Assembly: GCA_964016885.1 (NCBI GenBank)
Contig: OZ024740.1
Location: forward strand, 157,480,001 to 157,544,000
DNA from: Eledone cirrhosa
Lineage: Eukaryota
DNA: 64,000 bases
Direction of reading: 5' to 3'
In this document: positions 6,825 through 62,712 of the stretch, in pieces
Position numbering within the stretch: the stretch's first letter is position 1
Layout: every line of letters starts with the position of its first letter
Position numbers and translations under genes: made by a program
Notes under the pieces: model-generated
Told to the model about the DNA's origin: nothing
The model's input: only the letters and a program-made list of their open reading frames with translations
The model's database searches: none

Positions 6825-6975
6825 ATATATAACAAACTTAATATAGAAATGGCTTCGAATGAAACAGTTCTACTCCCGTAGAAGCCATTTCTATATTAAA
6901 TGTGTTGTATATACTCTATATATACTCTATTAATGTATTGAGTACCTTACTTACTGTGGTTACCTCCGATTGAAC
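6825..6975. mobile_element. Small hairpin-plus-tail cassette between microsatellites
   Basis: taatatagaaatggcttc / gaagccatttctatatta arms, followed by attGAGTAC at 6940. Confidence 0.55.
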
Positions 6976-7334
6976 ATATATATATATATATATATATATA
7001 TATGTGTGTGTGTGTGTATGTGTGTGTGTGTGTGTGTGTGTGTGTGTGTGTGTGTGTGTGTGTGTGTGTGTGTGTGTTTGTGTGTTTGTGTGGTGTGTAT
7101 TCCACAATGCTATCTTTAAATACACTACAACACTCTTACAATATACATCTTACATCTACATGTTATAAATTACTTCAACAAAATTGACGCAGAGAGTTAC
7201 GGCCCTTGCCATTCTGAGTTCAAATCCTGCCAATGTTAACTTTGCTTTTCATCCTTACGTGGTCGATAAAATAAAGTACCAGTAACACACTGGGTAATTG
7301 CTGGCCTTGTGCCTAAAGTAGAAACAATTATTAT

Positions 7335-8075
7335 CCTCCATACCACTGACCGAGCTAGTTTTGTTTCTACAGCCTCAGTAGGGCGTCATAACCGAAGACC
7401 AAAGATCCTTTGGGATTCTTTTATCGCCTCAGATTTTGAGCACCTTCTGGTTCTGATATAATGTAGTTTGCTATAATAGATCTATTCGAATTTACGATCC
7501 CAATCTTCTCTAGCTGTGATTTTATCAAGGGTGCACCTAACGACTGGCACAATTTCAACGTGTTTCAGACTGCACACTTTTACAATATTTTGGCGGTTCC
7601 CGATCTTTACGTTTTCTTTCTCACATTCTCTATTGCCCCCCTCTGATGATATATCTGTTATACCGTGTCCTGTCGTTTAACGATAACAGTGTCTGCCATC
7701 CGAGCCTCAATCCTTTGACCGGATTAGATCTTCTCGTTTTCTTCCTCTGTGTTAGGTTGTTACTTGTACCACCTATCAGCTCTATCCAAAATTATTCCCA
7801 CGCAGTTTCCAATGTTCTATGCGCACCATTCTGTCATACCATTCTTTATATTCCTTTTATGAAGGTTTACTACGTTCATTCACACAGCGGCTAATGCTAT
7901 GCTTTCACCTTTTGTTTTTACCACAATATCTACATAAGGGTGATTTCACCTTCTTATCGATGCTGCATTTTTCAGTGTTTACGTAGATTAACACAGTTCT
8001 GCTTTAGATAACTGTTCGTATCCACTACCATATCTCTTGGTTAACAATGCTGCTATACTTGTCTCTGGTAAACTG
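7335..8075 (-). mobile_element. Degraded R4-like 3' fragment
   Basis: Remnant zinc-knuckle/RLE sequence similar in character to 32260-32960. Confidence 0.45.
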
Positions 8076-10044
8076 TTCATATATTGCAATTAAAATGAAA
8101 AGCATGGCTAAAAAAGAAACTGTTATTATTGTTATTATTATTACTATTATTATTGCCTTTCATCCTTTCAAGATCAATAATATAAATACCAATCAAGTAC
8201 TGGGCTGTTTAATCGATTGTTCTTTATTTAAATTTACGGCTTTTTGAAAATGTTAACAATAAAAGATAACAATTATTATATCGATACAAAGGGTGGTGGA
8301 TTGGCAGTATCGGTAGAGGGTCTCACGCTCTGCTTTGCAGCAATGAGTTCCGGTCCTTTATGGTCTGAGTTCAAATCCCGCCGAGGTTAACTTTGCCTTT
8401 CATCCTTACGAGGTTGATAAAATAAAGCACCATGGGATAATTGCTGGCCTTGTGCCAAAAGTAGAAACAATTATTATATCCATACACTATATATCATTTT
8501 CGCAATGTATTATAATTATTGCATAGATTTAGCTTAATTATAGTTATTTACTTAGATGTTTGATACACACTCGGTTTACACGGACTAGATAAACTAGCTT
8601 TGTTTTTATCCAAGGGGAATAACTGTGTTCGAGGACTTCAACATTCCCAGTTTCTATCAAATCCACAGAACTTTGTTAACAGTGTCTTATTTAATTATAA
8701 TGATTTATTAATCAAATGTTTGTGATGAAAGGGGTTAAGATGGTTATCTAATAAATAAACAAACAAAAAAAAAAAGCAATATAAAATACGAATATATTAA
8801 ATAAGCAAGAAATATTTACTTAGCCCGCCAGCTATCGTTGATTATACCTGTGCAGGAGTTAGAAATTATAACATTTTTTAATACATTGAAAAATTGCATT
8901 TTTCCTGTTGTCTTAGATAAAAGTAAATAACCTGTTTACATTGCTTCTTCATATATTGTGTAATACAAATAAAATAAAAAGAAACAAGTTATTTTTAATG
9001 CAACTCTGGGTAATGGCTTGGGAGAAAACTGAATTTTTAGTCTACCATTTCTTATTTAACTCTTATTATTTACATAATGGAAAAAAGGGTCGAGATGGTA
9101 CAATTGTTATATGTGTGCTTAATGCAATCTTGTTTGTTAGCATTTCCATGTGGGGTTATTTGGAATAGCGTAAACCAGTGATACGAAAGGGTTGCTAGAT
9201 TTAGGAGAGTAAGTTATGAATAAATATGAAACATACGCAAAAAAAAAAAAAAAATTGATGTAAATAGCTGTGAATACCGAGGGTTCGAACTCAGCCAGTC
9301 TTGTGAATAAATAAGGAGTGTTGGAATGCTTTGTATCGTTGAAGCCTCCTGACACCAAACAGCTGAGAACATTTCACCTCATGGCACGAGAACTCATTAT
9401 GCACACATAGAGGCATACACATACACACAAACATATAAACATTACAAAAATACAGACAATCCTCATTTCTTCAAAGAAGAGTTCAATTCAAAATTATACC
9501 TTTTATCTAATTTTACGAACTCTATATACATACACACACATACTCACACACGCACAGACACGCATGCACGCACACACGCGAACACACACCCACCCACGCA
9601 CACACACACAAAAAACCACATGCATACTCTTCCTTTTCCATTCTTTTTCTCCCTCTTTGAAGAAGGAATTTGGCCAAAATGTCAAGAATAACTGTTTCGT
9701 TTCCTCTCGTGGATCTTAGTAAAAACTTTGAATTTTATTCTATCCCGTCATGTTTTTTTTATACATTATATATATATATATATATATATATATATATATA
9801 TATATATATATATATATATATATATGTATACATATATATATATTTATGTATGTATGTGTGAGTGTGCGACAGAGAGAGTGTGTGTATGTGTGAGTGTGTG
9901 TGTGCATTTCAGAATTGGCAACGGGTAGAAAAATTCAGCCGCCATAATGCACGAAAACAGTTTCGATCCTTACCAACGATATATATAGTTTTGTATGGGG
10001 CCAGTTTGTGATTTAAACTCGGGAATTTTATAATCTCCGAGCAA

Positions 10045-10140
10045 GAAGAACCTTCTGACGAGAGTCCCCTTCTCAATGATAATCCGCCTGGATTATCCAT
10101 TTATTTTGGGATTTGAAACCGCGCGGTAAAAACTTATTCT
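10045..10140 (+). ncRNA. Type I hammerhead motif
   Basis: CTGACGA(10055)-gagtccc...gggattt-GAAA-ccgcgcg-GTA. Stem III is the palindrome ACCGCGCGGT; stem I is imperfect. Confidence 0.65.
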
Positions 10141-10364
10141 AAACTTTTTCTCTATTTGCTAAACCTTGATTATATATATATATATATATATATATATATA
10201 TATATATATATATATATATATATATATACATATATATATACACATATATATATATACATATATATATATATACACACATATATATATACATATATATATA
10301 TACACATATATATACATACATATATATATACACATATATATATATACATACATATATATATATA

Positions 10365-61300: not shown

Positions 61301-61996
61301 AAGTATAAGACCCTCATAGAACTGGACATGAAAGGAATTTGCCCATTATACAGGAGAAAATCATGGAATAGCTTAGATAGGGCTAGACATAAGATAGGGA
61401 AAGCCACCTCATGGTACGACAACCAGAGATACGAGAGTGTCATGTTTGTGGACGCTACTCCTGGAGGGAAATTAGCTAACCAGTGTAGAAAGGCCCCGAG
61501 AAAGACCCACTTAAAAATTAAGGTGGTAGGAAAGCCAGGAACCACCATAAAATCCCTGATCAGTAAAACCTACCCTTTTAAGAAAACCCACTGTACCAAT
61601 AGGAAATGTATCATATGTAAGGTAAACCCCCGGATAAACTGTAAAACTAGAAACGTAGTCTATAGCATAAGATGTACAGAGGGTACCTGCCGAAAGATGA
61701 CAACAACATACATAGGTGAGACAGCTCGTAGCATAGGTGAAAGGATAGACCAACACTGGGGGGAACTAAAAGGACGAAAAAACGGGTCAGTACTATACGA
61801 GCATGCCAGACAACAACATGACGGTAACGTAGACAACATAGAAATTAGAATAATATCTAAACATAGAAATGACCCAGTAGATAGGCAAATCAGAGAGGCC
61901 AGTGAAATAGAACTTAGAAGACCAAGACTAAACAGAAAGAATGAATGGAATAACAACAACACCCAAACAAACAACACTGACCTAAGAGAAGTATAA
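58367..61996 (+). pseudogene. Disrupted PLE RT plus GIY-YIG ORF with an Asn-rich insert
   Basis: Consecutive ORF segments 58367-58651, 58757-59203, 59200-60072 (in-frame TAG), 60097-60537 and 60575-61996. Confidence 0.85.
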
Positions 61997-62257
61997 ATAA
62001 GTAAATAAAATAAAATAAAATAAATAAATAAATAAATAAATAAATACATACACAAGCACAATAACAACAAACACATAAACACACATTAGTCACCCAATCA
62101 CGAACACACATCACACATCAAACAAAACACTATACACACACGCAAACGCATGCGCAAAGAAGACAAAATAAAATAAACAAACAAGCAAATAAATAAATAT
62201 ATAGACAGACTGAATAAAAATGGCATAGCCATACAATTCAACAGGAGGAAACAATAG

Positions 62258-62305
62258 CACCACTGACGATGTTGCAGATGTGCAACGAAAGATTTATGAT
62301 AAACT
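62258..62305 (+). ncRNA. Hammerhead motif upstream of the 3' end of the Neptune-like element
   Basis: acca-CTGACGA-tgttgca-gatg-tgcaac-GAAA-gatt-TA-tgat; stems I and III are mildly degenerate. Confidence 0.65.
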
Positions 62306-62517
62306 ATATATATGTGTTTGTGTCTATATTGTATCTGTATTATTTTTGACCGTCGGTCAGTCAATGGCAACATTGAGGACCGAGTATATTAGATTACCGA
62401 TATAAAAGACACAGAAGCGAAAACCAACCAAACAGTGAGTGTATTCTGTTATTAATTCTGGCAATATTACACAAATATGACCCTCCCCAAGTATAATATA
62501 TATATATATATATATTT

Positions 62518-62712
62518 AGGAACCGGTAAGACCCCGACGGCTGAGCTCAAGCCGTTTCGACGGCTAATTCTGAGTCCAGAATGTGCCGTCGAAACGGCTT
62601 GAGCTCAGCCGTCGGGGTCTTACCGGTTCCTATTACCCACTCTACTACCCCAAGTATTGAGTACTTTGGTGCGTTATGGTCCACCTGGTTCCTTACCATA
62701 TTTCCTTCGTTA
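62518..62712. mobile_element. Short fold-back plus tail, same family as 10740-11090
   Basis: Arms ~62518-62572 and 62577-62632 each carry GAAAcggcttgagctcagccGTC. The tail contains GAGTAC. Confidence 0.75.

What the first reader, a model, noticed from the sequence alone, without database searches (positions are those of the whole stretch)
6825..62712. A recurring non-coding architecture in microsatellites: fold-back, hammerhead and tail, shared by many unrelated families
Seen in sequence: at least eight 150-450 bp cassettes (6825, 10365, 12658, 38245, 42165, 44575, 51341, 62518; looser cases 11560, 15077, 37440) sit in (TA)n/(CA)n tracts. They share a plan of inverted arms, a full or partial type I hammerhead core (CUGANGA...GAAA, often with palindromic stem III) and a single-copy tail, although their primary sequences differ. 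Established: PLE pseudo-LTRs carry minimal hammerheads, PLE insertions often have an inverted 5' pLTR and a 3' tail, and retrozymes are non-autonomous hammerhead elements. Inference: these are either extreme truncation products of (TA)n-targeting PLEs or a class of self-propagating hairpin ribozyme elements that carry a ribozyme on both strands.
Basis: partly seen in the sequence, partly recalled or inferred. Interest (0 to 1): 0.82.

Follow-up and report, generated by a model that had tools for sequence, protein, structure and literature searches.

The report
Truncated fold-back Penelope retroelement ends
The hairpin-shaped inserts in TA repeats are real, but they are likely the shortest dead-end insertions of ordinary Penelope-like jumping genes rather than self-copying ribozyme elements; one related copy carries an A-run exactly at the predicted ribozyme cut site, which may record cutting in the living animal.

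Summary
All 8 main cassettes have inverted arms with one end on a microsatellite and a one-sided tail; looser case 37440 has neither arms nor core. Hammerheads are uneven: both strands in 3 of 8, once in 2, half in 2, absent in 1. The plan is the published Penelope-like element (PLE) insertion: inverted pLTR plus tail. The window holds Hydra- and Neptune-type PLE ORFs and longer or shorter relatives of three cassette families, with the same ends but other breakpoints; one has PLE coding sequence between the same arms. Laying four public runs on the 12658 family gave 12 different low-depth inversion-type junctions and no abundant one, so the window's identical-loop pair is likely a local duplicate. 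In read-through RNA of the cassettes with two hammerheads, the core is predicted to be fully paired to its antisense arm. Verdict: extreme truncation products, likely made by two primings. Residual interest: local copying of whole cassettes, and an AC(A)28 insert exactly at a GUC cleavage site (one case).

The parts
6832..6973 (+). Cassette H: short arms 6832-6905, tail 6906-6973, no hammerhead core
10365..10718 (-). Cassette A copy 1: shortened tail 10365-10392, arms 10393-10718, loop 10548-10564, hammerheads at 10440-10500 (-) and 10612-10671 (+)
10740..11088 (+). Single-arm relative of cassette C without tail; hammerhead with core UUGAGAA (U3-A8 pair) and a 5-6 bp stem III
   Evidence: core read by eye
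11042..11071 (+). AC(A)28 insert exactly between the predicted GUC cleavage triplet (ends 11041) and the 3' strand of stem I; absent from both arms of 62517
11561..11771 (+). Unit B copy 1: split core, short inverted arm
12660..13075 (+). Cassette A copy 2: arms 12660-12985, loop 12815-12831, tail 12986 to about 13075, hammerheads at 12705-12763 (-) and 12882-12940 (+)
15077..15287 (+). Unit B copy 2, 99% identical to copy 1
19726..21580 (.). Long family D insertion: same no-tail arm and tail arm as 44576, with PLE coding pieces between (19813-20139 +, 20173-20565 -)
27008..27083 (-). 76-bp family E insertion: tail plus the last bases of the pLTR, no inversion
27527..29721 (+). Broken Hydra-type PLE ORF (RT YRDD, CxCX5C linker, GIY-YIG-like motif); long-stem-II hammerhead near 30829
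38245..38672 (+). Cassette E: 53-bp arms (38245-38297, 38564-38616), hammerhead 38420-38462 in the spacer, tail 38617-38672
42166..42575 (-). Cassette F: tail 42166-42247, arms 42248-42575, CUGAAGA...GAAA-UACGUA-UA in both arms
44576..44786 (-). Cassette D: tail 44576-44663, arms 44664-44786; CUGAAGA at 44723 formed at the junction
51343..51513 (+). Cassette G: arms 51345-51451, one UUGAUGA core on the minus strand in the loop, tail 51452-51513
51544..56847 (-). Hydra-type PLE: direct pLTRs 56502-56847 and 51544-51889 (98%), each with a hammerhead; ORF 53797-56404; 3' end on (TA)n without tail
57615..57831 (+). Single-arm family E relative ending on (TA)n without tail
58072..62495 (+). Neptune-type PLE with the cassette plan at full length: inverted pLTR plus tail at the 5' end, ORF pieces 60073-61993, 3' pLTR without tail on (TA)n
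62517..62712 (+). Cassette C: arms 62517-62632 carrying only GAAA, stem III and the cleavage site; tail 62633-62712

Best explanation
The cassettes are likely the shortest insertion products of several microsatellite-targeting Penelope-like retrotransposons, each made of two short head-to-head copies of the element's pLTR end, one with the tail and one without. Shown: the plan (TA)n - antisense pLTR end - loop - sense pLTR end - tail - (TA)n; the same ends around PLE coding sequence in longer copies; variable breakpoints. Inferred: the GIY-YIG endonuclease nicks both strands of (TA)n. One nick primes reverse transcription at the pLTR end and the other in the tail, the sequence that follows a pLTR in the tandem transcript. 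Both cDNAs run inward, stop early and are joined head to head, and where they stop decides whether a whole, half or no hammerhead is kept. The hammerheads would be passengers, masked in read-through RNA because on each strand the antisense arm is made first. A minority of cassettes (pairs A and B) were likely recopied whole over 2-4 kb. I favour repair of a broken (TA)n tract from a neighbouring (TA)n-flanked cassette; this step is untested.
For: Family D: the 211-bp cassette and the 1.86-kb copy share both ends, and the long copy holds PLE protein pieces (tblastn E 3e-29 and 4e-19). The 58072-62495 PLE shows the plan at full length; its tail is the sequence after the 5' pLTR and is 81-83% identical to the end and tail of cassette E. 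Families C, D and E have single-arm copies with other breakpoints., family A: of 15 joints in table 5, 3 lie on the symmetry axis of my reference and 1 is a plain deletion; the other 11, plus 12816-12952 from table 5c, are all different. Contig depths are 3.6-16.6 against 2.2-6.7 for the single-copy flank and 1e5-2e6 on the arm. At 12817 nearly all depth carries T (X1 3540.9 of 3540.9, X2 3472.1 of 3472.1, X3 4307.8 of 4317.9, X4 41 of 41 reads), whereas both window copies carry A. Core pairing probability is 1.0 in 6 of 6 strand tests of A and F. In A and G the loop continues the no-tail arm while the tail is on the other arm, which simple fold-back copying cannot give. Literature: inverted 5'-truncated copy, one-sided tail and (TA)n targeting (PMC8557442, PMC3846280); both strands cut and extended, two RT start sites bounding the tail (PMC11167929).
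Against: No ORF-bearing parent lies in the window for A, B, C, F, G or H; their assignment rests on shared plan and hammerhead position. Only family A was tested in reads, from at most 2 samples. Contigs drop rare forms: the window's own junction was not listed, so sensitivity for low-copy junctions is incomplete, and depth is not a copy number. The skip-type joints could also be deletions across a junction. Tails of 56-90 nt are longer than the published 30-40. Two identical-ended pairs show that unit copying does occur. Both arms of 12658 share rare alleles, which needs an added arm-to-arm conversion step.
Confidence: 0.82

Rival explanations
1. A class of self-propagating hairpin ribozyme elements: the cassette is transcribed, cut on both strands and reinserted as a unit by PLE proteins.
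For: 10365 and 12658 share the junction, the rare A at 12817 and an arm-specific A/G difference; 11561 and 15077 are 99% identical; their unique flanks are unrelated in 4 of 4 comparisons. pLTR sequence can suffice for mobilisation in trans (PMC3846280, passage).
Against: The shared junction is not abundant in four runs; both pairs are local; 5 of 8 cassettes lack a core on both strands; cores are predicted to be masked.
Confidence: 0.06
2. Same PLE origin, but the second arm is made by the cDNA folding back and copying itself (self-priming), not by a second priming at the target.
For: Proposed from palindromes at inverted junctions (PMC3846280, passage). It fits C, E and 58072, where one arm can be a copy of the other, and would explain alleles shared by both arms of 12658.
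Against: In A and G each arm has sequence that the other lacks: the loop on the no-tail arm, the tail on the other. The A/G arm difference persists in both A copies.
Confidence: 0.25
3. The fold-backs are assembly or chimeric-read artefacts.
For: Inverted duplicates next to (TA)n are a known assembly hazard (own knowledge); a 99% perfect palindrome that includes its flanking repeat lies at 19268-19630.
Against: Arms differ by substitutions and end at the pLTR terminus; similar joints stand in independent runs, 12816-12952 in 3 of 3 contig runs.
Confidence: 0.02

Closest known systems
Complex insertions of EN+ Penelope-like elements: inverted 5'-truncated pLTR plus tail (PMC3846280, PMC8557442, PMC11167929)
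   Same: Head-to-head pLTR copies, one-sided tail, hammerhead in the pLTR, heavy 5' truncation, microsatellite targets.
   Different: Here nearly the whole body is lost, leaving 140-430 bp hairpins; tails are mostly 56-90 nt; two cassettes were recopied locally.
Hydra and Neptune PLE clades (PMC8557442)
   Same: The ORF at 53797-56404 has RWR, DKT, CxCX5C and terminal CxxC/CxH; 60073-61993 has a CX4CxxC linker; Hydra families insert into (TA)n.
   Different: Clade is assigned by motifs only, with no tree; most cassette families could not be tied to a clade.
Non-LTR retrozymes (PMC7229834; bioRxiv 10.64898/2026.07.22.740005)
   Same: Non-coding, 150-450 bp, type I hammerhead, PLE-related.
   Different: Retrozymes are head-to-tail tandem repeats that release circular monomers; these are single head-to-head units with the ribozymes on opposite strands.

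Membership tests
EN+ PLE insertion unit | Adjacent inverted 5'-truncated pLTR copy | tested here: met
   8 of 8 main cassettes
EN+ PLE insertion unit | Tail on one end only, equal to the sequence after the 5' pLTR | tested here: met
   One-sided in 8 of 8; identity to the post-pLTR sequence shown for 58072 and, by homology, family E; mostly longer than 30-40 nt
EN+ PLE insertion unit | Ends belong to an element with RT plus GIY-YIG ORF | tested here: inconclusive
   Met for D and for a relative of E; no parent in the window for A, C, F, G, H; no genome held
EN+ PLE insertion unit | Type I hammerhead in the pLTR | tested here: met
   Whole or in a relative for A, C, D, E, F, G; none for H; cleavage not assayed
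EN+ PLE insertion unit | Variable 5' truncation and inversion points | tested here: met
   Families C, D, E in the window; 12 different junctions for A
EN+ PLE insertion unit | Target-site duplication | not testable with these tools
   Hidden by (TA)n flanks, as noted in PMC8557442
Hydra clade (parent ORF 53797-56404) | RWK-like motif, DKT, CxCX5C linker, CxxC and CxH near the EN end | tested here: met
   RWR, DKT and CNCRRSSNC; CDLC and CQH; definition
Non-LTR retrozyme | Head-to-tail tandem monomers with same-strand hammerheads | tested here: not met
   All cassettes are single head-to-head units
Non-LTR retrozyme | Expressed as linear and circular monomer RNA | not testable with these tools
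   No RNA run was available to lay
MITE or fold-back DNA transposon | Inverted repeats form both termini and length is fixed | tested here: not met
   The tail lies outside one arm, lengths vary, and arms match PLE ends

The most novel reading that the evidence does not exclude
The AC(A)28 run sitting exactly at the GUC site of the family C hammerhead (11042-11071) is a fossil of ribozyme cleavage in vivo: the PLE transcript was cut, the upstream piece was A-tailed, and the reverse transcriptase jumped from the downstream piece onto that tail and inserted the rejoined copy. Such scars would let anyone read PLE hammerhead activity and RT template jumping from genomes alone.
Probability: 0.4. 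Interest if true: 0.55.

Novelty: new member of a known kind. Interest (0 to 1): 0.3.

Why it matters
The main finding is ordinary: it adds octopod-like PLE families and shows the extreme short end of a described insertion pattern. Two points go a little further. The arm and loop asymmetry discriminates between two-priming and self-priming models of PLE insertion, which remain unsettled. The A-run at a cleavage site bears on an open question: hammerhead function in EN+ PLEs is called unclear (PMC8557442), and no RNA-seq reads were found beginning or ending at the site in the anole element (PMC11167929). It is a single case.

Tried and rejected
No whole genome is held, so the genome-wide BLAST could not be run. 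Rfam: only microsatellite-driven miRNA-type matches below gathering score among the 150 rows shown of 203. Pfam on 5 ORF pieces: one weak D5_N hit, no RT or GIY-YIG; the assignment comes from motifs and from relatives that carry PF01541. The first hammerhead scan was too strict and missed cores with an extra base after A9; it was relaxed. Run search: no RNA holder listed. Three joints (12790/12856, 12799/12846, 12802/12844) were dropped as products of my reference, 12872-12909 as a deletion, and three table 5c pairs of unstated kind (12905/12863, 12905/12846, 12942/12909) were not counted; 3 rows of 5c were hidden. No insertion at family A's cleavage site (12930) stands among the 12 rows shown of 34, but A-rich reads may be filtered, so this is uninformative. 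Monomer folds of 10 hammerhead stretches gave z from -2.75 to 0.22 and mostly not the ribozyme fold. Arm extension used wrong seeds for 4 of 5 cassettes; those rows were ignored. Segmental duplication as the source of pairs A and B was rejected (0 of 4 flank comparisons matched). Searches for a prior report of an A-run at a PLE hammerhead site and for hairpin PLE or octopus cases listed none, but the library lacks most subscription papers.
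Full report
Setting. The window is AT-rich animal DNA with 119 alternating-repeat tracts. A 755-aa frame at 54071-56335 has relatives in Argonauta hians and Solemya velum, some carrying the GIY-YIG family PF01541, so the host is likely an octopod (inference). PLE coding sequence lies at 27527-29721 (+), 53797-56404 (-) and 60073-61993 (+), with fragments at 19813-20565 and 23487-24117. 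By the motif definitions in PMC8557442 (passages and section 11 read), the first two are Hydra-type (CxCX5C linker; RWR and DKT in the second) and the third is Neptune-type. No tree was built.

Observation. All 8 main cassettes have significant arms and a one-sided tail. Orienting each by its hammerhead or by relatives gives one plan: microsatellite, antisense pLTR end without tail, loop, sense pLTR end, tail, microsatellite. Canonical hammerheads number 7 against 0.12 in shuffles. They are on both strands only in 10365, 12658 and 42165, once in 38245 and 51341, as a 3' half in 62518 and 44575, and absent in 6825. In 44575 the canonical-looking core is a junction product; family copies at 21420 and 19746 fold as type I motifs with CAGAAGA. 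37440 is not a case. 11560 and 15077 are an atypical 99% identical pair.

Relatives in the window. Family D occurs as the 211-bp cassette, as a 1.86-kb insertion with the same two ends around inverted pieces of PLE coding sequence, and as two single-arm remnants. Family E occurs as the cassette, as a 76-bp tail-plus-end piece and as a single arm without tail. Its relative 58072-62495 is a near full-length PLE with an inverted pLTR plus tail at its 5' end, and that tail is the sequence that follows the 5' pLTR. Family C occurs as the cassette and as a 349-bp single arm. The cassettes are therefore one end of a length series.

Genome-wide test. No assembly was available. I laid three contig sets of one sample and one RAD run (4 of the 6 runs listed) on 12790-13330. 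The unique flank has depth 2.2-6.7 and the arm 1e5-2e6; this is not a copy number, but the family is very abundant. Sequences covering the loop nearly all carry T at 12817 and many diverge again at 12826-12827, and 28 RAD reads from one start run from the loop's minus strand straight into the arm. The loop is therefore likely the parent's upstream sequence on the no-tail arm. After dropping 3 axis artefacts and 1 deletion from 15 joints and adding one from table 5c, 12 different inversion-type junctions remain, none deeper than 16.6 in contigs; the largest RAD one is 85 reads from a single start. An amplified hairpin would have shown as one deep junction. Limits: at most 2 samples, contigs drop rare forms, the window's own junction was not listed, and only family A was tested.

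The identical pair. 10365 and 12658 share the junction, the rare A at 12817 and an A/G difference between tail arm and no-tail arm, while their unique flanks are unrelated. They likely descend from one hairpin insertion, and 10365 lost most of the tail. Both arms of 12658 share minority alleles (T at 12934, about 0.3% of X1 depth; G at 12908, at most about a quarter), which suggests later arm-to-arm conversion (inference). Pair B shows the same local recopying. I favour repair of a broken (TA)n tract from a neighbouring cassette, which allows either orientation; RNA-mediated local copying is not excluded.

Mechanism. PMC11167929 (parts 1-2 of 4 read) shows an anole PLE protein cutting and extending both strands, with two RT start sites that bound the tail. 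Two such primings, one at the pLTR end and one in the tail, joined after early arrest, give exactly this plan. Self-priming, proposed in PMC3846280 (passages), fits C, E and 58072. It does not fit A and G, where each arm has sequence that the other lacks. On either strand the antisense arm is transcribed first, and predicted core pairing is complete in 6 of 6 tests of A and F (hairpin energies -219 to -255 kcal/mol), so a two-strand ribozyme function is unlikely unless transcription starts in the loop. In D, E and G the single core is predicted to be largely open.

A side finding. The single-arm family C copy has core UUGAGAA. This keeps a Watson-Crick 3-8 pair; the rescue of C3G by G8C is described in PMC11167929, and that U3-A8 occurs naturally is recalled. 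It has a 5-bp stem I and a stable stem III. Between GUC (11041) and the stem I strand lies AC(A)28, with no duplication and no A seed in either arm of 62517. A random position would hit this junction about 1 time in 320, though the feature was noticed after the fact and is 1 of 3 homopolymers of 12 or more in the window. A's on the sense strand fit a tailed RNA template. End-to-end template jumping is known for R2 (seen only as a reference and a figure note in PMC3774820 passages). A chance capture of an A-tract at a break remains possible.

Comparison. The plan equals the published PLE insertion unit (PMC8557442, PMC3846280). Minimal and palindromic-stem-III hammerheads with an extra base after position 9 are described for PLEs (PMC4209133, passages). 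Retrozymes are tandem and circularise (PMC7229834, passages; bioRxiv 10.64898/2026.07.22.740005, part 1 of 5), a feature not met here. PMC6765202 was read as passages. Lunse et al. was seen only as a reference. No supplements were read; those of PMC8557442 hold consensus sequences that may already include these families. Two earlier AI reports on shark windows reached the same reading; they are leads, not support.

Verdict. A real pattern of a known kind, with new family members; interest 0.3.

Noticed in passing
window 11042-11071: AC(A)28 inserted exactly at the predicted hammerhead cleavage site of a single-arm PLE end.
   Followed up: partly
   Followed up: no
window 51085-51165: Small fold-back of about 28-bp arms around an A-rich loop next to (TA)n.
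   Followed up: no
window 19268-19630: Near-perfect palindrome, 181-nt arms and a 1-nt spacer, including flanking alternating repeats; real fold-back or assembly artefact.
   Followed up: no
window 30415-30840: Hammerhead with a 101-nt stem II and palindromic CGAUCG stem III downstream of the 27527 PLE ORF; SINE-like copies sit just upstream of its core.
   Followed up: partly
window 10055-10135 and 56940-56975 (-): Two more hammerhead-like motifs in single-arm PLE-end pieces; the second has a C run after GAAACG (read by eye).
   Followed up: no
window 12345-12439: High-scoring type I-like fold with core UUGAAAA and long stems (score 21) in a 422-bp piece between TA tracts.
   Followed up: no
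window 14380-14768, 16955-17051, 25557-26463: Elements with short terminal inverted repeats in (TA)n; the last holds a 178-aa frame resembling a Tc1/mariner transposase N-terminus (recalled resemblance).
   Followed up: no
window 59100-59600: Long asparagine-rich (AAT/AAC) insert in the Neptune-type ORF, like the N-rich inserts described in PMC3846280.
   Followed up: no
window 50472-51023: Tandem array of a 33-bp unit, about 16 copies.
   Followed up: no
window 1585-48080 (many places): About 15 copies of one SINE-like family of roughly 100-250 bp.
   Followed up: no
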